This document shows, piece after piece, positions 16,956 to 53,774 of a stretch of 64,000 nt of DNA. This DNA comes from a virus (Duplodnaviria > Heunggongvirae > Uroviricota > Caudoviricetes), in the IMG/VR virus record IMGVR_UViG_3300035182_001709, one strand, 5' to 3'. The notes under the pieces are model-generated. The model did not search any database. It was not told the origin of the DNA and saw only the letters and a program-made list of their open reading frames with translations. The stretch's first letter is position 1; each line of letters begins with the position of its first letter. A program made the translations under genes and the position numbers.

Positions 16956-17028
16956 GCCTCGGTAGCTTAGCGGGCTAAAGCTGCGGTCTCTAAAACCGCG
17001 ATCGTGGGTTCGACTCCCACTCGGGGCA
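16956..17028 (+). tRNA. Amber suppressor tRNA (anticodon CUA at 16990-16992); amino-acid identity unknown; discriminator A; no encoded CCA
   Basis: Canonical cloverleaf: acceptor GCCTCGG/TCGGGGC, D arm GCTT-AGCGGGCTA-AAGC, anticodon stem GCGGT/ACCGC with loop CUCUAAA (U33, A37), T arm GTGGG-TTCGACT-CCCAC. Confidence 0.8.
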
Positions 17029-17030
17029 CT

Positions 17031-17102
17031 GCTCCTGTAACTCAATGGCAGAGTGACGGATTCTAACACCATGCGTTGAGGGTTCAAGTCCCTTCGGGAG
17101 CG
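17031..17102 (+). tRNA. Second tRNA with probable CUA anticodon (17063-17065) but a weak anticodon stem
   Basis: Acceptor GCTCCTG/CGGGAGC, D arm ACTC-AATGGCA-GAGT, T arm GAGGG-TTCAAGT-CCCTT. Anticodon loop UUCUAAC is flanked by stem ACGGA/ACCAT (3 of 5 pairs), so identity is less certain. Confidence 0.5.
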
Positions 17103-17417
17103 TCATGGAAACTGCCTTTATCTGTGATCACTGCGGCAAGCGTTGTAGCCTCGAGCAAATGCTTGAGCTCCGTGAGTGATCCAGCCTTCTACAACAACTC
17201 TGGTCTAGAGAGGCTCGCTGAATAGTTTCGACTCCGGCGCGATGAGCCAGAAGAACCGCTTCAACGTTATCATCTGTGTCATGAGTATCATCGCTATGGC
17301 GGTACATGGCGCATGGTGCCCTGTGGACCGATGTATCACGAGACAGAGCAGGAGTACTTCATTCACTGGGTTGGTGGCTCGATGAACTTCGCGCAGAAAC
17401 GTTGATACATTGTTGGA

Positions 17418-39625: not shown

Positions 39626-40897
39626 TCAGCGGCCGATCTTATTCAGGATGGTGTCGTAGGACGAGGCGTTGAGCTTTTCCTTGGACGCCATCAACTCACA
39701 CCACTCGCGGGCATTGGCCGCACGGCTTTCCCACAAGTTGAAGTAGGGCGCCGCCCAATCGTTGGACTGCATCACCTTCTCAGCGAAGAGCTTCCGCGAA
39801 CCCGCTGCGTAATCACGCCAGGCCTCGAAGTTGCGATCGACAGAGATGAGATACTCGCGCACCGCAGCCTGCATCGAACGCAGCTCCCCAGCCACGTCGG
39901 CCTCGACCAACGGGATGACGTCATCAATCGTGCCGCGGATGATGGCCTCGACTGCGGATCGCTTCGAGACAGTCACTAGGTCCTTCGCTTTGGAAGACAG
40001 GACCCAGGCCCGAGACTTGACCTTCTGACGGTTGAAATTCGAGTCAACGACGACCGCGCCTTCCAACTTTGATGGGTCCGCCGCCTCAACAAACGCTGCC
40101 AGCGCCTTCGGTTCCGACAACTTCCAACGCTGCGGCCGGTTGACGTGCTGCAGTTGCAGCTCCTCGATGACCGATTCATTGCCCGATGCCGTGTGACGAA
40201 TCGCCAACAGCGTCACACGAGGCTCGTCATAGCGAACCACGATGCGGTTGTGCGGGCTCGTTAGCTCGAAGACGTACGTCAGTTCCTTGTTGAGATGAAC
40301 GACCTGATCGAAGTCGCTCGGAACCCAGTCTAGCTTTTGGCCCGAGTTCGCCTCACGGGTCTCGATCAGGGCCTTGAAGAACAGGTCGCGGAACGTCATG
40401 TTGCCGATCGACATGTCATCCTTGCGGATCGGCAGGTCAGCCTCGGGAACCGACCGCGTACCGACGTGCCACTGACCATGAAGTTCGTCCCAGTAGACGA
40501 TGCAACACGTGCCATCGAGCTTCTCGTAGACGCGGAGCTCGGGATCCGACCAGTCGACCCCCGCGGCCGCGACATCGCCGTGGTTGTAGAAGCGATTCAT
40601 GGGCCAGGCCAACAGCTCGCAGTCGCCTACGACGCGGTCGCGCCACTTTGCTGTCGACAGAGGCGCGCCACCACGCCGGGCCTCATCGTGGAGGAACTGC
40701 TCCGTCTGCTCGCGAGATGGACGAATCACCATGCCGCGGCACTGTTCCATCAAGGCATTGCCCGACTTCGCCAAGATCTGATCATAGTTGAGTGAGAACT
40801 TATCGAAGCGCGAGTTGGGCCGCGCACAGACACCGTGCTCGTCCTCGAGCTCACGGAACGTATGGGAACGCAGGTACTCCAACACCAACGGCTTCAT
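39626..40897 (-). CDS. ATP-dependent RNA ligase (T4 RnlA/Rnl1-like nucleotidyltransferase)
   Basis: Motif I YEKLDGTCC (KxDG); 423 aa, comparable to Rnl1. Confidence 0.55.
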   Translation of the reverse strand: MKPLVLEYLRSHTFRELEDEHGVCARPNSRFDKFSLNYDQILAKSGNALMEQCRGMVIRPSREQTEQFLHDEARRGGAPLSTAKWRDRVVGDCELLAWPMNRFYNHGDVAAAGVDWSDPELRVYEKLDGTCCIVYWDELHGQWHVGTRSVPEADLPIRKDDMSIGNMTFRDLFFKALIETREANSGQKLDWVPSDFDQVVHLNKELTYVFELTSPHNRIVVRYDEPRVTLLAIRHTASGNESVIEELQLQHVNRPQRWKLSEPKALAAFVEAADPSKLEGAVVVDSNFNRQKVKSRAWVLSSKAKDLVTVSKRSAVEAIIRGTIDDVIPLVEADVAGELRSMQAAVREYLISVDRNFEAWRDYAAGSRKLFAEKVMQSNDWAAPYFNLWESRAANAREWCELMASKEKLNASSYDTILNKIGR

Positions 40898-42848: not shown

Positions 42849-43541
42849 TTACCGTAGAGTCCGGAACAACTCGTTATTGTCGCCGCAGTAAGCCTTCAGC
42901 TTGTCGAACCAGGCCCGCGACTTCTGCTTGAACATCACGGGTGCCTTGGTTTTCTTGTCGTTCTTGCCTTTGCAGACGACGCCTTCAAAGGTCATGCCGG
43001 GCAGCGAACCGTCCCGAACGCTCTCTATGAAGGCTTCCGTCACTTCGCCTTCGTACAAGACCTTGGCGTGGTCGAGGTGACCAAACAACTTCAGGTAGAG
43101 CTCAGGCTCCAGAATGCCGGCGCCGAAGGGCGCCACGTCGATCAGGGTTACCGTCTGGTCTTCCTTGAGGTCGTGCATGCCGAAGGCACTATTGGGCCCC
43201 CAAAATTCGAAGAAGCAGCAGGCCGAGACCCACTTCGATTCCTTGAGCACCTCGTCGATGCCCTTGCCGTACTTGTCGTTGATCAGTCCGGGCACCTTAC
43301 CGAAGACAGGATCGGATGCGTCCACTAGCCGCGTGCGGGTGCCGAACTTGTAGAAGCCTTTTTTGCGCGACCACTCGGCGCGGACGTTGGACCCGTCGAG
43401 CTTGTCGAAGGCGACGATTGGGACTCGGCACTCGGTGGCGTAGGGGATTGAGGGATATGATTTCATGACTTTCTTCACAGAAAAACATTCGTCGCCATCG
43501 ATGTCATCGATAGCCCTAGATCGTCGGTGGTACGATACCAC
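42849..43541 (-). CDS. Small RNA ligase-like nucleotidyltransferase (Rnl2/DRB0094-like)
   Basis: Motif I FDKLDGSNVR (KxDG), EGVVCKG (motif IV/V-like). Confidence 0.5.
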   Translation of the reverse strand: MVSYHRRSRAIDDIDGDECFSVKKVMKSYPSIPYATECRVPIVAFDKLDGSNVRAEWSRKKGFYKFGTRTRLVDASDPVFGKVPGLINDKYGKGIDEVLKESKWVSACCFFEFWGPNSAFGMHDLKEDQTVTLIDVAPFGAGILEPELYLKLFGHLDHAKVLYEGEVTEAFIESVRDGSLPGMTFEGVVCKGKNDKKTKAPVMFKQKSRAWFDKLKAYCGDNNELFRTLR

Positions 43542-44630: not shown

Positions 44631-44717
44631 TTCTAACTTGCGGAAGGTGCGAGAGTCGAACTCGCAATAGGCTCATCACCTATGTCGGTTTTCAAGACCG
44701 ATGGGCCTGCCAATGCC
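44631..44717 (-). tRNA. tRNA-Ser (UGA), type II
   Basis: GGAAGGT-TT-GGGC-ATTGGCAG-GCCC-A-TCGGT-CUUGAAA-ACCGA-[long variable arm]-GCGAG-TTCGACT-CTCGC-ACCTTCC-G. Confidence 0.65.
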
Positions 44718-44740
44718 CAAACCTTCCAAGTCACTTCTTC

Positions 44741-45374: not shown

Positions 45375-45398
45375 AAGTTCGTTCGGGTCGGAGCAGAG

Positions 45399-45471
45399 GG
45401 ATTCGAACCCCCGTGAACCCTATGGGCCTCCTGGGTGTAAACCAGGCATTCTACCGCTGAACTATGCTCCG
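45399..45471 (-). tRNA. tRNA-Val (UAC) with unusually long (17-nt) variable region
   Basis: Anticodon arm CCTGG-UUUACAC-CCAGG; T arm GGGGG-TTCGAAT-CCCTC; acceptor CGGAGCA/TGCTCCG. Confidence 0.45.
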
Positions 45472-45499
45472 ATTGCGGGGGATAGCACCCCCGCTCGCC

Positions 45500-45886
45500 T
45501 CAAATCAACTTCAGGTTACCTGTGATCCTGTCGAGCAGCGCACCCTCGCATGGTCCGAAGGCTGCACAAGTCAATGTCGGAACTCCATTGAACTCTGTCC
45601 TTCCGGCGTCGATGATGGGATGCACCTCGACGTCCTCAATTTCTGCCTTGAAGATGAGGTCCTTCAAGGCATCTTCCGAATCCACACCCACCACGATCTT
45701 GGTGAAGGAACCCGACAACCATGTGGCCTCTGCGGGTGTCAGCTTGATGACGACCTCGTCTCCACGTTGCGCTTCGTTGTTGTCAACGAGAAACTTCATC
45801 GAAGCATGGGCGACCTGGGCGGCCAATTTGCCCTTTTTCATGTTCAGGTCCTTTCGTACGACGATGACCTGCTTCACGTCACTCAT
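45500..45886 (-). CDS. pth2: Peptidyl-tRNA hydrolase, PTH2 family
   Basis: KQVIVVRKDLNMKKGKLAAQVAHAS...TLTCAAFGP (canonical PTH2). Confidence 0.75.
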   Translation of the reverse strand: MSDVKQVIVVRKDLNMKKGKLAAQVAHASMKFLVDNNEAQRGDEVVIKLTPAEATWLSGSFTKIVVGVDSEDALKDLIFKAEIEDVEVHPIIDAGRTEFNGVPTLTCAAFGPCEGALLDRITGNLKLI

Positions 45887-46044
45887 GGTGTCCTCCGGCT
45901 TGTCAAGGATCGGTCTCGTGCCTTTCGGCACGGGCTTCCCCCTCGGCTCTTCGCCGAATCTCGGACGCTTGCGCGTCTTGGGAGTTGATAGGTCTTGCGG
46001 GCGCATAACCGGCCTTGATAAGTATCGGAAGTTCGAGGTTCAGT

Positions 46045-46928: not shown

Positions 46929-47008
46929 TGGCACCCCTGGCGAGAGTCGAACTCGCATGTGTCCAATTACGATTTCACCTGCTTAGAAGGCAGAGTCGAT
47001 ACAGGGGC
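46929..47008 (-). tRNA. Atypical tRNA-Arg-like gene (anticodon UCU)
   Basis: Acceptor GCCCCTG/CAGGGGT, canonical T arm GCGAG-TTCGACT-CTCGC and anticodon hairpin TCTGC-CUUCUAA-GCAGG. Only ~5 nt lie where the D arm should be, and a ~20-nt D-loop-like segment (AATTGGACACAT) follows the anticodon arm. Confidence 0.4.
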
Positions 47009-47012
47009 ATGA

Positions 47013-47090
47013 TGGCACCCCCGACAGGATTCGAACCTGCATGTGTCCGTTAGCTTTCTCGTGCTTCGAAGGCACGCGGCATACGGGGGC
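47013..47090 (-). tRNA. Atypical tRNA-Arg-like gene (anticodon UCG), same architecture
   Basis: Acceptor GCCCCCG/CGGGGGT; anticodon hairpin CGTGC-CUUCGAA-GCACG; segment ...CTAACGGACACAT before T arm GCAGG-TTCGAAT-CCTGT. Confidence 0.4.
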
Positions 47091-47097
47091 GTGATGG

Positions 47098-47177
47098 TGG
47101 CACCGCTGGAGGGATTCGAACCCACGTGCATCCAGCTACCCTTTCAACGGTTTAGGAAACCGAGGGGATACAGCGGC
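47098..47177 (-). tRNA. Atypical tRNA-Arg-like gene (anticodon CCU), same architecture
   Basis: Acceptor GCCGCTG/CAGCGGT; anticodon hairpin CGGT-UUCCUAA-ACCG; D-loop-like GGGTAGCTGGATGCAC placed 3-prime of the anticodon arm. Confidence 0.4.
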
Positions 47178-47182
47178 ATAGT

Positions 47183-47259
47183 TGGCCTCCCCGGTGGGAT
47201 TTGAACCCACGACCTCGTGCTTCGGAGACACGCGCTCTGATCCGCTGAGCTACGGGGAG
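47183..47259 (-). tRNA. tRNA-Arg (CCG), canonical
   Basis: CTCCCCG-TA-GCTC-AGCGGATCA-GAGC-G-CGTGT-CUCCGAA-GCACG-AGGTC-GTGGG-TTCAAAT-CCCAC-CGGGGAG-G-CCA. Confidence 0.65.
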
Positions 47260-47335
47260 AAATTCTTGCTAACGTGATAGCCTCCTTTGGTGGAAGTCAT
47301 GCGATCTTTCTCGTGTCAAACGTGCTTCACCTGAT

Positions 47336-47410
47336 GCAGGATTCGAACCTGCTGCCCCGGATCACGAGCCCGGTGTGTTAACCCATACACCATCGATGGT
47401 TACTAATTGT
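47336..47410 (-). tRNA. tRNA-Thr (CGU); acceptor pairing imperfect
   Basis: D arm GTGT-ATGGGTTA-ACAC; anticodon arm CCGGG-CUCGUGA-TCCGG; T arm GCAGG-TTCGAAT-CCTGC. Confidence 0.45.
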
Positions 47411-48683: not shown

Positions 48684-49352
48684 TCACCAGTCACCCTTGA
48701 GCCACTTCGACAGGTTGTACTTCTGACCTGTCCTATGGTCAGTGACCAGGTCGTCCTGTGTCCGGTAGGTTCGTACCTTGTCGCCGCGCTGACCTGAGCC
48801 CACCTGTTGCTTGCGCTCGTTGGAGCGCTCGCGGTAGAGCCGTTCAGACTCAGCCTCGTAGAGGCGAGCGGCCAAGACCTTGAAGGCCATCGCCCGGTTC
48901 TGGTGCTGCGAGCGCTCGTTGTCAATGCGAACCTGAAAGCCGGTGGGCTTGTGGACCGCGATGACGCACGACTCTGTCTTGTTGCGATTTTGGCCGCCCG
49001 GACCCGAGCCTCGGGCAGTGGTGATTTCCACATCACGGGGGTCTAGTGCCTGGCCGATGACGGTGTCTGGGTTTAAGACCGCGACCGTCACTGTCGACGT
49101 TTGCACACGACCACGCTTTTCTGTCGGTGGAACGCGCTGCCACCTGTGCCCGCCGCCTTCATTTGCAAAGGTCTGCAGGGTTCCTGGGCCGGAGACAGAG
49201 AGCATCACCATCCCTGGTCGATCATCGATTACAGTCGCCTCAAAGACCCCTCCGGGCCGCCGCGTTGGCGTATGCCCGGAGCTGCTCCTGAACGAGAAGT
49301 CTTGCGTCCTCGCCGCCCTCGGCGGCCCTGATCTCGATGATGACAGTTTCCA
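48684..49352 (-). CDS. Class-I peptide chain release factor homologue (RF1-like domains 2-4, PPT tripeptide, GGQ) made by programmed +1 frameshift at CUU-UGA; lacks domain 1
   Basis: Frame 1 (ATG 49352) reads METVIIEIRAAEGGEDARLLVQEQLRAYANAAARRGL then UGA (49242-49240). The +1 frame continues GVFEATVIDD...GGGHRWQRVPPTEKRGRVQTSTVTVAV...SGPGGQNRNKTES...RIDNERSQHQNRAMAFKVLAARL...GDKVRTYRTQDDLVTDHR. The junction AGGGGU-CUU-UGA-G has a Shine-Dalgarno-like AGGGG 3 nt upstream. Confidence 0.7.
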   Translation of the reverse strand, partial: WKLSSSRSGPPRAARTQDFSFRSSSGHTPTRRPGGVFEATVIDDRPGMVMLSVSGPGTLQTFANEGGGHRWQRVPPTEKRGRVQTSTVTVAVLNPDTVIGQALDPRDVEITTARGSGPGGQNRNKTESCVIAVHKPTGFQVRIDNERSQHQNRAMAFKVLAARLYEAESERLYRERSNERKQQVGSGQRGDKVRTYRTQDDLVTDHRTGQKYNLSKWLKGDW

Positions 49353-49353
49353 T

Positions 49354-49665
49354 GTTAGTCCTCCACGGCAACGAGGATGCCGAAGACGGTCTTCCTCGTG
49401 CACCAACCGTTGATGTGGCCGTGATTGTTGCTGATCTGGTAGCGACCATCGCTGCCGATAGCTGACACCTTGTGAAGCATCTGGATGCCGTTGACCTTGC
49501 ACAGGACAACGTCGTCAACCTCGACCAACGTTTCGTCCGTGACAGGGGCGACCGTGACCAGCTGCCCGCTGCAGATCCGCGGGACCATACTGTTCCCGTG
49601 TGGGCGAAACTTGACCGTCTGACCCTCACGTAGAGCCTGGACGTTGAAGAGAGATCAGTCTGTCA
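49354..49665 (-). CDS. LexA/UmuD-like S24 peptidase domain protein; catalytic-Ser region lies upstream of the first in-frame ATG, behind ATG-ACA-GAC-TGA
   Basis: ...VKFRPHGNSMVPRICSGQLVTVAPV...VVLCKVNG... (S24 GxSM Ser and Lys dyad). The reading frame is open from the TGA at 49656-49654, which is preceded by ATG ACA GAC. Confidence 0.4.
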
Positions 49666-50210: not shown

Positions 50211-50286
50211 TGGCGCGCCCGGCAGGATTTGAACCTACGTAAACTTGTTTCGTAGACAAGTGCCTCATCCACTAGGCTACGGGCGC
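50211..50286 (-). tRNA. tRNA-Arg (ACG)
   Basis: GCGCCCG-TA-GCCT-AGTGGATG-AGGC-A-CTTGT-CUACGAA-ACAAG...TTCAAAT... Confidence 0.6.
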
Positions 50287-50410
50287 ATGATTTAGTGAGG
50301 TGAGTCGTAAACCGGGTTTGTTCACCCTAAGCGGGTGGACGATCATTCCTCTTGGTTGACAGTTACCTGTCCCCACCTCAAAGGTTGAAACGCTTCACCT
50401 TCACGATCGG

Positions 50411-50484
50411 ATTCGAACCGACGACCCAGTAGTTGGACACCACCTGCTCTACCAGACTGAGCTACGTCTCATGAGTTACTTACG
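50411..50484 (-). tRNA. tRNA, anticodon uncertain (loop region GUCCAAC; possibly Trp CCA); acceptor pairing poor
   Basis: D arm GCTC-AGTCTGGTA-GAGC and T arm GTCGG-TTCGAAT-CCGAT are clear. Confidence 0.35.
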
Positions 50485-51426: not shown

Positions 51427-51500
51427 TTCACTTGCACGGAATCGAACCGTTCTACTCGCTTTTTAGGCAAATGTGCTACCGTTACACTAAGTCAGACGCG
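51427..51500 (-). tRNA. tRNA-like gene, anticodon unresolved (loop CUAAAAA)
   Basis: T loop TTCGATT present; acceptor pairing poor. Confidence 0.25.
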
Positions 51501-52479: not shown

Positions 52480-52560
52480 TGGTCCACCCTCTCCCTCTCA
52501 GGATTGAATCGAGGCCTCCTGGGTTTCAACCAAGTGCGCTACCATTACGCCAAGGGTGGA
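52480..52560 (-). tRNA. tRNA-Phe (GAA)-like gene with a 7-nt insertion (AGGGAGA, duplicating the acceptor 3-prime strand) between the T stem and acceptor
   Basis: Anticodon arm CTTGG-UUGAAAC-CCAGG; 5-prime TCCACCC pairs with GGGTGGA located 7 nt beyond the expected position. Confidence 0.35.
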
Positions 52561-53677: not shown

Positions 53678-53774
53678 GTGGACCCGGCGGGATCGAACCG
53701 CCCTGTCGGGTGCCCGTAACCTCCTGACATGGAGGAACAGCAACACCGTGTATGCCCGTTACACCACGGGTCCA
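53678..53774 (-). tRNA. tRNA-Asp (GUC)-like gene, ~97 nt, with internal direct repeat (GTAACGGGCA / TTACGGGCAC) suggesting a ~20-nt insertion
   Basis: Acceptor GGACCCG/CGGGTCC; anticodon hairpin CCTCC-AUGUCAG-GGAGG; T arm GGGCGG-TTCGATC-CCGCC. Confidence 0.35.

What the first reader, a model, noticed from the sequence alone, without database searches (positions are those of the whole stretch)
46929..47177. Three consecutive tRNA-Arg-like genes (UCU, UCG, CCU) with a shared non-canonical architecture, next to a canonical tRNA-Arg (CCG)
Each has a perfect 7-bp acceptor stem, a canonical T arm and a good anticodon hairpin with U33 and purine-37. But the D-arm position holds only ~5 nt, and a ~20-nt D-loop-like segment (containing GG, for example AATTGGACACAT or GGGTAGCTGGATGCAC) lies between the anticodon arm and T arm. 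The same odd layout in three different isoacceptors argues for a functional, rearranged tRNA class rather than random decay.
Basis: seen in the sequence. Interest (0 to 1): 0.55.

Follow-up and report, generated by a model that had tools for sequence, protein, structure and literature searches.

The report
Phage arginine tRNAs with rewired core
The three odd genes are real members of a large, apparently undescribed, phage-borne class of arginine (and, in other phages, isoleucine) tRNAs in which the D stem-loop pieces are present but stitched in a different order, so standard tRNA finders miss them.

Summary
Confirmed and extended. Window 47177-46929 (minus strand) holds three tandem tRNA-like genes with anticodons CCU, UCG and UCU, each ending in G73-CCA. 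ARAGORN misses all three. The Rfam tRNA model aligns them only by deleting the D arm and inserting about 20 nt before the T arm.

They are not decayed copies. Pattern and model searches recovered 115 distinct relatives in phage contigs and in cultured Streptomyces, Microbacterium, Vibrio and crAss-like phages, nearly always unannotated. A 3-bp helix joins the nucleotides after U8-A9-U to the nucleotides after a GAAA linker. It is 96-100% paired, with compensatory changes. The strand that follows reads like a D loop (A14, R15, G18 G19, N20).

The layout equals a canonical tRNA with block 10-21 moved 3' of block 22-45. Undoing that swap in silico makes ARAGORN of 115.

Two results argue that they are charged and decode:
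- Position 20 tracks identity: A20 goes with Arg anticodons (113 of 114), U20 with Ile anticodons (93 of 94, a sister branch).
- Their anticodons avoid those of neighbouring canonical tRNA-Arg genes (1 shared in 49 loci, 14.4 expected).

Expression, charging and the 3D fold remain untested. Ten literature searches found no prior description.

The parts
47098..47177 (-). Rewired tRNA-Arg(CCU), gene 1: 77 nt (47177..47101) plus encoded CCA (47100..47098)
   Evidence: Family model R1 84.2 bits. Rfam tRNA 27.8 bits with the D arm deleted. Anatomy verified.
47013..47090 (-). Rewired tRNA-Arg(UCG), gene 2: 75 nt (47090..47016) plus encoded CCA (47015..47013)
   Evidence: R1 81.7 bits. Rfam tRNA 36.5 bits with the D arm deleted. 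Anatomy. 79.5% identical to an unannotated copy in Streptomyces phage Moab.
46929..47008 (-). Rewired tRNA-Arg(UCU), gene 3: 77 nt (47008..46932) plus encoded CCA (46931..46929)
   Evidence: R1 92.4 bits. Rfam tRNA 33.8 bits. Anatomy.
47154..47156 (-). Anticodon CCU of gene 1, in loop UUCCUAA (47158..47152)
47067..47069 (-). Anticodon UCG of gene 2, in loop CUUCGAA (47071..47065)
46985..46987 (-). Anticodon UCU of gene 3, in loop CUUCUAA (46989..46983)
47165..47168 (-). Gene 1, 5' strand of helix X (U + CCC). Read as D-stem positions 22-25; directly followed by N26 and the anticodon stem.
   Evidence: Pairs with GGG+U at 47141..47138. Family covariation.
47138..47141 (-). Gene 1, 3' strand of helix X (GGG + U). 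Read as D-stem positions 10-13.
47142..47145 (-). Gene 1, GAAA linker between the anticodon arm (+N44) and helix X
   Evidence: At least 90% conserved in the family but replaced by 3-12 nt of other sequence in some members.
47126..47137 (-). Gene 1, D-loop-like strand AGCUGGAUG (A14 G15 .. G18 G19 A20 ..) plus CAC leading into the T stem (C48 opposite G15)
   Evidence: (pair of columns 45:56)
47078..47081 (-). Gene 2, 5' strand of helix X (U + GCC)
   Evidence: Pairs with GC(+U) at 47054..47052. This is the shorter 'GCC/GC' subclass also seen in 17 family members.
47052..47054 (-). Gene 2, 3' strand of helix X (GC + U)
47055..47058 (-). Gene 2, GAAA linker
47041..47051 (-). Gene 2, D-loop-like strand AACGGACA plus CAU
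46996..46999 (-). Gene 3, 5' strand of helix X (U + CGA)
   Evidence: Pairs with UCG+U at 46972..46969.
46969..46972 (-). Gene 3, 3' strand of helix X (UCG + U)
46973..46976 (-). Gene 3, GAAA linker
46957..46968 (-). Gene 3, D-loop-like strand AAUUGGACA plus CAU
47183..47259 (-). Canonical tRNA-Arg(CCG), 5 nt upstream of gene 1. First gene of a four-gene Arg block.
   Evidence: ARAGORN. Rfam 66.3 bits.
50211..50286 (-). Canonical tRNA-Arg(ACG). With CCG and the three rewired genes it completes a non-redundant Arg anticodon set.
   Evidence: ARAGORN. Rfam 63.3 bits. Complementarity test.

Best explanation
The three genes are working arginine tRNAs (anticodons CCU, UCG, UCU) of a phage-borne class whose core is wired differently from the cloverleaf.

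All the usual pieces are present, but the block 10-21 (5' strand of the D stem plus the D loop) lies 3' of the block 22-45 (3' strand of the D stem, N26, the anticodon arm, N44). A GAAA linker sits between the two blocks. The order is therefore: acceptor - U8 A9 - [22-25] - 26 - anticodon arm - 44 - GAAA - [10-13] - [A14 R15 .. G18 G19 A20 ..] - CAY48 - T arm - acceptor - G73 - CCA.

The D stem still forms, as helix X, but it now encloses the anticodon arm. The D loop still leaves position 13 toward the T loop.

Inferred: because the three new chain junctions (9 to 22, 45 to 10, 21 to 46) connect residues that touch each other in the classical L-shaped structure, the RNA can fold into an ordinary L shape.

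Inferred: the genes are co-transcribed with the neighbouring tRNA genes on the minus strand and cut out by RNase P and 3' processing. Host ArgRS charges them through A20, C35, U/G36 and G73. They then read AGG, CGA/CGG and AGA, complementing the canonical tRNA-Arg(CCG) and (ACG) of the same phage.

Shown here: the sequence anatomy, family-wide conservation and covariation, coupling of the identity element to the anticodon, complementarity of anticodons, and restriction to phages.

Not shown: transcription, processing, charging, the 3D fold, and why this wiring is kept.
For: 1. Real family. One pattern scan of viral contigs gave 64 distinct sequences with the same layout. HMM and covariance searches raised this to 133 copies, 115 distinct. 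Family members score at least 50 bits; canonical tRNAs score at most 41.

2. Covariation on a plain MAFFT alignment. Helix X is 98.8% paired, and all 3 pairs have double-sided changes (for example CG 33, GC 15, AU 13, UA 3). The acceptor is 99% paired, the anticodon stem 98.8% and the T stem 97.5%. Sliding the partners by 1-3 columns drops pairing to 34-46%. An unbiased mutual-information scan ranks the helix X pairs 4th, 7th and 12th of all column pairs.

3. D-loop behaviour. R15 and Y48 co-vary (A:U 104-105, G:C 4). Position 20 is A in 113 of 113 Arg-anticodon members and U in 93 of 95 NAU (Ile) members. The search patterns fixed position 20 but never the anticodon. This matches the bacterial identity sets: Arg = A20, C35, U/G36, A/G73; Ile = U20, A35, U36, A73 (PMC9976931). 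The discriminator is A or G in 98 of 111 Arg members and A in all 4 non-Arg members of the first set.

4. Decoder behaviour. 111 of 115 anticodons are Arg. In 49 non-redundant loci that also carry canonical tRNA-Arg genes, the rewired gene shares an anticodon with them in 1 locus. Shuffles give 14.4 +/- 2.9, and 0 of 10,000 shuffles were that low. In the window the sets are CCU/UCG/UCU versus CCG/ACG.

5. Location. 106 of 108 copies lie on the same strand as the nearest canonical tRNA within 1 kb. In crAss-like Kehishuvirus 'tikkala' the element fills the 90-nt unannotated gap between tRNA-Trp and tRNA-Met.

6. Block swap. Moving the block back in silico makes ARAGORN of 115 with the predicted anticodon, against 1 of 115 natively and 0 of 133 in genomic context. 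Scores against an HMM of canonical phage tRNA-Arg rise from 16.6 bits (41 positions aligned) to 31-33 bits (73 of 76 positions).

7. Purifying selection at short range. A solitary copy in an unrelated contig (L111) is 96% identical to gene 1 and carries a compensatory U6-A67 to C6-G67 change.

8. Codon demand. The window's ORFs use the codons concerned: AGA 6%, AGG 13%, CGA 13.8% and CGG 13.2% of Arg codons.

9. Feasibility. E. coli HisRS, EF-Tu and the ribosome accept a D-armless tRNA (PMC11551756).
Against: - There is no expression, processing or aminoacylation evidence of any kind.
- RNAalifold does not predict helix X, and single-sequence folds are not better than shuffles (z -0.6 to -1.1). 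That is also true of the canonical neighbour (z -1.5).
- Family members were collected with sequence patterns that fix parts of the D-loop-like strand and the T arm. Conservation of those parts is therefore partly by construction.
- The in-silico swap test is lenient. Swaps with wrong boundaries are still called in 71-87 of 115 cases. In a scan of 700 boundary combinations the predicted one ranks 8th, at 31.0 bits against 33.1 for the best.
- The 27:43 pair is usually a U.U mismatch, so the anticodon stem is effectively 4 bp.
- One cultured phage (Zooman) carries a canonical ACG and a rewired ACG side by side.
- In the Ile branch, anticodon complementarity is not clear: 7 of 19 loci overlap.
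Confidence: 0.82

Rival explanations
1. Decayed tRNA pseudogenes: copies of tRNA-Arg that lost the D arm and picked up junk in the variable region.
For: Standard finders reject them. The same window does hold tRNA-like remnants with broken acceptor stems.
Against: The same layout occurs in over 200 distinct sequences from unrelated phages. All helices show compensatory changes, the identity element is coupled to the anticodon, and anticodons complement the canonical genes. The nearly identical copy in L111 has unrelated flanks and a compensatory change.
Confidence: 0.01
2. Ordinary cloverleaf tRNAs that the first reader simply misfolded.
For: None beyond the general difficulty of hand folding.
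Against: The Rfam covariance model deletes the D arm (11-15 model positions) and inserts 16-18 nt before the T arm in all three. Only 5 nt lie between A9 and the anticodon stem.
Confidence: 0.01
3. tRNA-Phe(GAA): the invariant GAAA is the anticodon. This is how Streptomyces phage Mildred21 annotates its copy.
For: The GenBank annotation 'tRNA-Phe(gaa)' covers a family member exactly. GAAA is at least 90% conserved.
Against: The stem that reading needs is paired in only 19.9% of cells. The base before GAAA is U in only about two thirds of members. GAAA is replaced by other sequence of 3-12 nt in several members. The hairpin loop carries U33, R37 and Arg or Ile triplets that track position 20.
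Confidence: 0.01
4. tRNA-like RNAs that are made but do not decode. They might act as decoys or sponges for host tRNA-targeting nucleases or for ArgRS, or as regulators or primers.
For: The family is phage-restricted. tRNA-targeting defences and rescue by phage tRNAs are well documented. The window also encodes two RNA ligases and a peptidyl-tRNA hydrolase.
Against: A decoy has no reason to avoid the anticodons of the phage's own canonical tRNA-Arg genes, yet these do (1 locus against 14.4 expected). A decoy also has no reason to keep the full ArgRS or IleRS identity sets, an intact 12-bp acceptor/T helix and an encoded CCA.
Confidence: 0.08
5. Structural rival. They are functional tRNAs, but floppy 'mitochondrial-style' D-armless ones with an extended anticodon arm, not isosteric with the canonical L shape. 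The D-loop resemblance would then be a historical leftover.
For: Helix X plus the anticodon stem can be read as one long interrupted hairpin. The swap-boundary scan does not single out one solution. E. coli translation tolerates a D-armless tRNA.
Against: Position 20 behaves as a synthetase determinant. R15:Y48 co-vary. U8, A14, G18 G19 and a canonical T loop are kept. Mitochondrial D-armless tRNAs lack these features, and ARAGORN's mitochondrial mode does not recognise the genes.
Confidence: 0.15

Closest known systems
Canonical bacterial and phage tRNA-Arg (Rfam RF00005; for example the window's own tRNA-Arg CCG and ACG)
   Same: 7-bp acceptor, 12-bp acceptor/T helix, T loop UUCGAAU, anticodon loop with U33 and A37, Arg anticodons, A20-like base after GG, A/G73, encoded CCA, location inside a tRNA gene array.
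   Different: The order of the core segments differs. The D-stem 3' strand comes first and the anticodon arm sits inside the D stem. The D-stem 5' strand and D loop lie where the variable loop should be. They score only 17 bits against a canonical tRNA-Arg HMM.
Metazoan mitochondrial D-armless tRNAs (tRNA-Ser(AGY/UCU) and nematode or mite truncated tRNAs)
   Same: No hairpin in the D position; only a short connector between the acceptor and anticodon stems (reviewed in PMC7609411).
   Different: Those are short (about 54-65 nt), have a 3-5 nt variable region and lack the G18 G19/T-loop elbow. They work with adapted mitochondrial factors. The phage RNAs are full length (75-77 nt) and keep U8, A14, G18 G19, N20 and a canonical T loop. 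ARAGORN's mitochondrial mode does not detect them.
Permuted and split tRNA genes of red algae and Archaea (PMC3218864, PMC3728597, seen)
   Same: tRNA segments occur in a non-standard order in the gene.
   Different: In those cases the gene is circularly permuted at the ends and processing restores a normal cloverleaf. Here the 5' and 3' ends are normal, with CCA encoded at the 3' end. The swap is internal, so the mature RNA itself must carry the new order.
Other non-canonical bacterial and phage tRNAs: allo-tRNAs and 8/4 or 9/3 tRNAs (PMC5389517), and the engineered D-armless 'mini HisT' in E. coli (PMC11551756)
   Same: They depart from the standard cloverleaf while remaining usable in bacterial-type translation. 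Some are found in phages.
   Different: Allo-tRNAs change the acceptor/T-stem lengths and keep a D arm and a paired long variable arm. Mini HisT is artificial and simply lacks the D arm. Neither has a relocated D loop.
Class II tRNAs (Leu, Ser, Tyr) with long variable arms
   Same: About 20 nt lie between the anticodon arm and the T arm.
   Different: Class II variable regions fold into their own hairpin next to a normal D arm. Here that stretch pairs with the 5' connector, carries the D-loop motif, and there is no separate D arm.

Membership tests
Canonical tRNA (Rfam RF00005 / ARAGORN cloverleaf) | 7-bp acceptor stem closed by the 5' and 3' ends, plus discriminator (and CCA) | tested here: met
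   All three have 7 of 7 pairs (G1.U72 wobble), G73 and encoded CCA.
Canonical tRNA (Rfam RF00005 / ARAGORN cloverleaf) | D arm: 3-4 bp stem plus loop between positions 10 and 25, 5' of the anticodon arm | tested here: not met
   Only 5 nt lie between A9 and the anticodon stem. The Rfam alignment deletes 11-15 D-arm positions.
Canonical tRNA (Rfam RF00005 / ARAGORN cloverleaf) | Anticodon arm: 5-bp stem, 7-nt loop, U33, purine 37 | tested here: met
   Loops are UUCCUAA, CUUCGAA and CUUCUAA. The stem is 5 bp in genes 2 and 3 (with a U.G closing pair at 27:43 in gene 3) and 4 bp plus U.U in gene 1.
Canonical tRNA (Rfam RF00005 / ARAGORN cloverleaf) | Variable region of 4-5 nt, or a self-paired long arm | tested here: not met
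   19-22 nt that do not form their own hairpin.
Canonical tRNA (Rfam RF00005 / ARAGORN cloverleaf) | T arm: 5-bp stem and a GTTCRANYC-type loop | tested here: met
   (one U.U mismatch in gene 1).
Canonical tRNA (Rfam RF00005 / ARAGORN cloverleaf) | Reaches the detector's threshold | tested here: not met
   ARAGORN of 3 in three modes. Rfam gathering run reports none. With relaxed filters the scores are 36.5, 33.8 and 27.8 bits against a 29-bit cut-off.
Bacterial arginine identity set (A20, C35, U/G36, A/G73; PMC9976931) | C35 and U36 or G36 | tested here: met
   Anticodons CCU, UCG, UCU.
Bacterial arginine identity set (A20, C35, U/G36, A/G73; PMC9976931) | A at position 20 of the D loop | tested here: met
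   An A follows GG in all three. That this A is the functional position 20 follows from the A20/Arg versus U20/Ile split in 209 sequences. Recognition by ArgRS itself was not tested.
Bacterial arginine identity set (A20, C35, U/G36, A/G73; PMC9976931) | A or G at position 73 | tested here: met
   G73 in all three. A or G in 98 of 111 Arg-branch members.
Bacterial arginine identity set (A20, C35, U/G36, A/G73; PMC9976931) | Aminoacylation by ArgRS | not testable with these tools
   Needs an in vitro charging assay or acid-gel northern blot.
Rewired-core phage tRNA family defined here (model R1) | Full-length match to the family covariance model, well separated from canonical tRNAs | tested here: met
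   84.2, 81.7 and 92.4 bits against at most 28.3 for every other site in the window. The three sequences were part of the 64-sequence seed, so the scores are somewhat inflated.
Rewired-core phage tRNA family defined here (model R1) | Helix X between the nucleotides after U8-A9-U and the nucleotides after the GAAA linker | tested here: met
   CCC/GGG, GC(C)/GC and CGA/UCG in the three genes. Family covariation.
Metazoan mitochondrial D-armless tRNA | Short overall length, 3-5 nt variable region, degenerate elbow, detectable by ARWEN/ARAGORN -mt | tested here: not met
   75-77 nt, 19-22 nt segment, canonical GG and T loop, not called by ARAGORN -mt.
Permuted tRNA genes (algal/archaeal) | 3' half encoded upstream of the 5' half; mature ends created by processing of a circular or BHB intermediate | tested here: not met
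   The acceptor strands sit at the two ends of each gene and CCA is encoded at the 3' end.

The most novel reading that the evidence does not exclude
Bacterial translation naturally uses a second tRNA topology. This is a phage-spread class of Arg and Ile tRNAs whose core is a block-swapped, probably isosteric, version of the cloverleaf. It is invisible to annotation tools. It may be retained because the rewired core escapes something that recognises the normal D-arm side of host tRNAs, such as tRNA-targeting defence nucleases, turnover enzymes, or a phage's own host-tRNA attack. The architecture and its spread are supported here. The selective reason is pure conjecture.
Probability: 0.55. Interest if true: 0.9.

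Novelty: new variant of a known kind. Interest (0 to 1): 0.8.

Why it matters
[quoted passage not shown] If these RNAs are charged and decode, that statement no longer holds for tRNAs that work inside bacteria.

- **Structure.** The tRNA core would tolerate a different chain connectivity while keeping its recognition points.
- **Annotation.** Phage tRNA inventories, codon-usage matching and host-prediction analyses would be systematically missing Arg and Ile genes. These genes are unannotated, or mislabelled Phe or Leu, in dozens of GenBank phages.
- **Engineering.** The family offers a natural scaffold for designing orthogonal tRNAs.
- **Testability.** Cultured Streptomyces, Microbacterium, Vibrio and Bacteroides phages carry it, so expression, charging and any role in evading tRNA-directed immunity can be tested directly.

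Tried and rejected
- **ARAGORN, all modes.** Bacterial, relaxed-threshold and metazoan-mitochondrial modes found none of the three.
- **Thermodynamic folding.** Single-sequence folds and RNAalifold were uninformative for helix X. The helix is seen only through covariation counts.
- **Near-identity search.** No relative of the window's phage exists among cultured phages. Only single tRNAs matched. A baseplate protein is at most 29% identical to Flavobacterium and Microcystis myovirus proteins.
- **'tRNA-Phe(GAA)' reading.** Tested and rejected.
- **Cellular genomes.** A search of 185,579 species genomes gave 6 hits, all in metagenome-assembled genomes and 5 of them inside dense tRNA arrays. The same pattern gave 101 hits in viral contigs, so this is not a cellular family.
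- **Other amino acids.** A geometry-only scan of about 2.5 Mb of tRNA-rich phage DNA found this layout only with Arg or Ile anticodons, plus one Val.
- **Promoters and terminators.** One promoter-like site, no more than the shuffled expectation (1.1), and no terminator-like site; nothing that separates the genes.
- **Complementarity in the Ile branch.** Inconclusive.
- **Literature.** Ten full-text searches and checks of two reviews of non-canonical tRNAs found no description. The library lacks most subscription journals, so a prior report cannot be excluded.
- **Not attempted.** I looked for no gene that co-occurs with the family. A phage ArgRS was considered, but the family is spread over unrelated phages.
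Full report
**1.

On the minus strand, directly after the canonical tRNA-Arg(CCG) at 47259..47183, lie three tRNA-like genes:
- 47177..47101, anticodon CCU
- 47090..47016, anticodon UCG
- 47008..46932, anticodon UCU

They are separated by 5-, 7- and 4-nt spacers, and each ends in G73 followed by an encoded CCA. Each has:
- a 7-bp acceptor stem that begins with a G1.U72 wobble;
- U8 A9, then only five nucleotides before the anticodon stem;
- a 7-nt anticodon loop with U33 and A37;
- 19-22 nt containing GG;
- a normal T arm.

ARAGORN misses all three in bacterial, relaxed and mitochondrial modes. Rfam at gathering settings reports none. With permissive filters the Rfam tRNA model scores 27.8, 36.5 and 33.8 bits, but only by deleting the D arm and inserting 16-18 nt before the T arm.

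**2. They belong to a large family**

A BLAST of the region hit an unannotated stretch of Streptomyces phage Moab with the same layout. A degenerate pattern taken from the GG segment and the T arm then pulled 120 loci from viral contigs. Sixty-four distinct sequences among them had the full architecture.

A covariance model built from these separates the family cleanly:

| Target | Score (bits) |
|---|---|
| The three window genes | 82-92 |
| Every other site in the window | at most 28.3 |
| Family members in fetched loci | at least 50 |
| Canonical tRNAs in fetched loci | at most 41 |

An HMM search raised the count to 133 copies, 115 of them distinct.

Cultured carriers include 53 Streptomyces phages (Stanwilliamsviridae), Microbacterium phages Zooman and A3Wally, 24 Vibrio phages and the crAss-like Kehishuvirus 'tikkala'. 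The element is almost always unannotated. Mildred21 labels it tRNA-Phe(gaa) and EGole labels it tRNA-Leu.

A specific pattern found 101 viral contigs but only 6 contigs among one genome each of 185,579 bacterial and archaeal species. All 6 are metagenome-assembled, and 5 of them sit in dense tRNA arrays. ARAGORN of the 133 copies in their genomic context.

**3. The anatomy**

On a plain MAFFT alignment of the 64 sequences, the three nucleotides after U8-A9-U pair with the three nucleotides after a conserved GAAA. This helix X is 98.8% paired. All three pairs show double-sided compensatory changes (CG 33, GC 15, AU 13, UA 3; CG 31, UA 8, GC 6; CG 50, GC 9, AU 3).

The acceptor (99%), anticodon (98.8% over 4 bp) and T (97.5%) stems behave likewise. 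Sliding the partners by 1-3 columns drops pairing to 34-46%. A mutual-information scan that assumes no structure ranks the helix X pairs 4th, 7th and 12th among all column pairs.

In the window the helix is CCC/GGG, GC(C)/GC and CGA/UCG.

After helix X comes U, then A-R-Y-U-G-G-N-Y-R, which reads like A14 R15 Y16 U17 G18 G19 N20 and onward. Then come C-A-Y and the T stem. The R at '15' and the Y just before the T stem co-vary like a Levitt pair (A:U 104-105, G:C 4). The window's gene 1 is one of the G:C cases.

**4. Block-swap reading (inference)**

In standard numbering the order is:

1-7, U8, A9, [22-25], 26, [27-43], 44, GAAA, [10-13], [14-21], CAY48, [49-65], [66-72], 73

This is a canonical tRNA in which block 10-21 and block 22-45 have changed places.
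- The D stem keeps its normal polarity (10 pairs with 25, and so on).
- Position 25 still leads through 26 into the anticodon stem.
- Position 13 still leads into the D loop.

Only three chain junctions are new: 9 to 22, 45 to 10 (via the linker) and 21 to 46. From established knowledge of the yeast tRNA-Phe structure, the residues at each junction are in direct tertiary contact. The relevant contacts are the triples 8-14-21, 13-22-46, 10-25-45 and 9-12-23, and the pair 26-44. An ordinary L shape is therefore sterically plausible.

Support from computation:
- Undoing the swap in silico makes ARAGORN of 115 with exactly the predicted anticodon, against 1 of 115 natively.
- Scores against an HMM of 101 canonical phage tRNA-Arg genes rise from 16.6 bits (41 positions aligned) to 31-33 bits (73 of 76 positions aligned).

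Caveats:
- Mis-registered swaps are still called in 71-87 of 115.
- In a scan of 700 boundary combinations the predicted one ranks 8th, at 31.0 bits. The best is 33.1 and the median 21.7. The test supports a swap in that neighbourhood, not one exact solution.
- The linker varies from 3 to 12 nt in some members, as expected for a connector.

**5. Evidence that they are charged and decode**

*Anticodons.* 111 of 115 are arginine: UCU 44, ACG 37, CCU 15, UCG 12, CCG 2, GCG 1.

*A sister branch.* The patterns forced an A after GG, so I repeated the scan requiring a non-A there. Their anticodons are UAU (70), GAU (15) and CAU (7), with U at position 20 and mostly A73.

*Position 20 tracks the anticodon.* Over 209 distinct sequences:

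| Position 20 | Arg anticodons | NAU (Ile-type) | UAC (Val) |
|---|---|---|---|
| A | 113 | 1 | 0 |
| U | 0 | 93 | 1 |

The patterns never constrained the anticodon. The split matches the published bacterial identity sets, Arg (A20, C35, U/G36, A/G73) and Ile (U20, A35, U36, A73) (PMC9976931). The relocated loop is therefore being read as a D loop by class I synthetases. Helix X is 96-100% paired in both branches.

*Complementarity.* In 49 non-redundant loci that also carry canonical tRNA-Arg genes, the rewired gene shares an anticodon with them in one locus. Shuffles give 14.4 +/- 2.9, and 0 of 10,000 shuffles were that low. In the window the sets are CCU/UCG/UCU versus CCG/ACG, a complete and non-redundant Arg set. 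The window's long ORFs use AGA, AGG, CGA and CGG for 46% of their Arg codons.

*Location and short-range conservation.*
- 106 of 108 copies lie on the strand of the nearest canonical tRNA.
- In Kehishuvirus the element exactly fills the unannotated gap between tRNA-Trp and tRNA-Met.
- A solitary copy in an unrelated contig is 96% identical to gene 1. Its flanks are unrelated and it carries a compensatory U6-A67 to C6-G67 change.

A geometry-only scan of all fetched DNA found this layout only with Arg or Ile anticodons, plus one Val.

**6. Rivals**

- **Pseudogenes and misfolded cloverleaves** are excluded by sections 1-5.
- **The 'tRNA-Phe(GAA)' reading** needs a stem that is paired in only 19.9% of cells.
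- **A non-decoding decoy** is hard to square with anticodon complementarity and complete identity sets, but cannot be excluded without expression data.
- **A floppy, mitochondrial-style fold** remains possible. The identity and Levitt-pair signals argue against it.

**7. Context**

The window is from a large myovirus-like phage with no close cultured relative. It invests heavily in translation. ARAGORN finds 28 tRNA genes. The window also encodes an Rnl1-like RNA ligase and a second RNA ligase, a PTH2 peptidyl-tRNA hydrolase and a release-factor homologue.

Why the rewired core is kept is unknown. Two ideas fit the literature but were not tested here:
- escape from tRNA-directed host defences, which phage tRNAs are known to counter;
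- escape from RNA turnover, since PNPase limited an artificial D-armless tRNA in E. coli.

A neutral, once-only rearrangement spread by exchange of tRNA arrays is equally possible. The Ile(UAU) branch is one anticodon change (C35 to A35) plus A20 to U20 away from Arg(UCU).

**8. Novelty and limits**

Ten full-text searches and two reviews of non-canonical tRNAs gave no description of such tRNAs. A 2024 paper states that all known bacterial tRNAs are canonical. The library omits most subscription journals, so priority cannot be certain.

Other limits:
- Members were collected with sequence patterns, so conservation of the GG strand, GAAA and the T loop is partly by construction.
- E-values from the home-made model are rough.
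- Complementarity is unclear in the Ile branch.
- There is no evidence of transcription, processing, charging or 3D structure.

I rate it a new variant of a known kind: still a tRNA, but with a new core topology. Interest is high.

Noticed in passing
L163-L282 (IMG/VR loci), e.g. L221 7946 (-), L188 2503 (+); also cultured Streptomyces phages: A sister branch of the same rewired architecture. It has Ile-type anticodons (UAU 70, GAU 15, CAU 7 distinct sequences), U at position 20 and A73.
   Followed up: partly
window 16956-17104 (+) and 48684-49502 (-): Two tandem tRNA genes with anticodon CUA (amber suppressors; ARAGORN labels them Pyl), and a gene with RF-1/PCRF release-factor domains. Together these hint at stop-codon recoding or its control. 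TAG ends only 2 of 41 long ORFs.
   Followed up: no
window 45385-45472 (-): tRNA-Val(UAC) of 88 nt with a 14-nt extra arm in the variable region (Rfam alignment). Long variable arms are normally confined to Leu, Ser and Tyr.
   Followed up: no
window 44640-44727 (-): tRNA-Ser(UGA) whose best Rfam match is the selenocysteine tRNA model (54.3 bits against a 47-bit cut-off). It may be an 8/4 'allo-tRNA'-like acceptor/T configuration, as reported for some phage tRNA-Ser.
   Followed up: no
window 53678-53773 (-): ARAGORN reports a 96-nt 'tRNA-???' with a four-base anticodon (gttc).
   Followed up: no
window 47332-47394, 50403-50467, 51436-51489, 52489-52559 (all -): Four further tRNA-like sequences (29-43 Rfam bits) with broken or missing acceptor stems that ARAGORN's default mode does not call. 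They look like remnants or other non-standard tRNAs. They are not of the rewired class (at most 28 bits with R1).
   Followed up: partly
window 39626-40897 (-), 42849-43541 (-), 45500-46006 (-): A T4 Rnl1-like RNA ligase, a second (weak, below Pfam cut-off) RNA-ligase match and a PTH2 peptidyl-tRNA hydrolase flank the tRNA array. This is a tRNA repair and recycling toolkit. Zooman has an RtcB-like ligase and Moab a Ro-like protein near their copies.
   Followed up: no
window 47177/47102, 47090/47017, 47008/46933; family-wide: All three window genes start with a G1.U72 wobble pair instead of G1-C72. So do 19 of the 64 aligned family members (24 of 115 in the larger set). This is unusual for elongator tRNAs and unexplained.
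   Followed up: no
L122 1495-1570 (Streptomyces phage Mildred21, MF155946.1 91367-91442); NC_055791.1 (EGole) 75271-75334: GenBank annotations call family members tRNA-Phe(gaa) and tRNA-Leu. By the analysis here the Mildred21 copy is tRNA-Arg(UCG); the anticodon of the EGole copy was not read. Dozens of other records leave the element unannotated.
   Followed up: partly
L123 2496-2572 (Kehishuvirus sp. 'tikkala', OQ198717.1): A rewired member with anticodon GAU and U20 fills the 90-nt unannotated gap between tRNA-Trp and tRNA-Met in a 25-gene tRNA array. Its acceptor stem has two U.U mismatches.
   Followed up: partly
L111 5193-5269 (IMGVR_UViG contig): A solitary rewired tRNA-Arg(CCU), 96% identical to window gene 1. 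It sits between protein-coding genes in a contig with no other similarity to the window and no other tRNA in 10.8 kb. This suggests horizontal movement of single genes.
   Followed up: partly
family-wide (alignment A1 columns 10:43 and 15:34): Two conserved U.U oppositions: one at the outer end of helix X (108 of 113 Arg, 94 of 95 Ile) and one at the 27:43 position of the anticodon stem (59 of 113 Arg, 84 of 95 Ile). They flank the junction and may be structural hallmarks.
   Followed up: no
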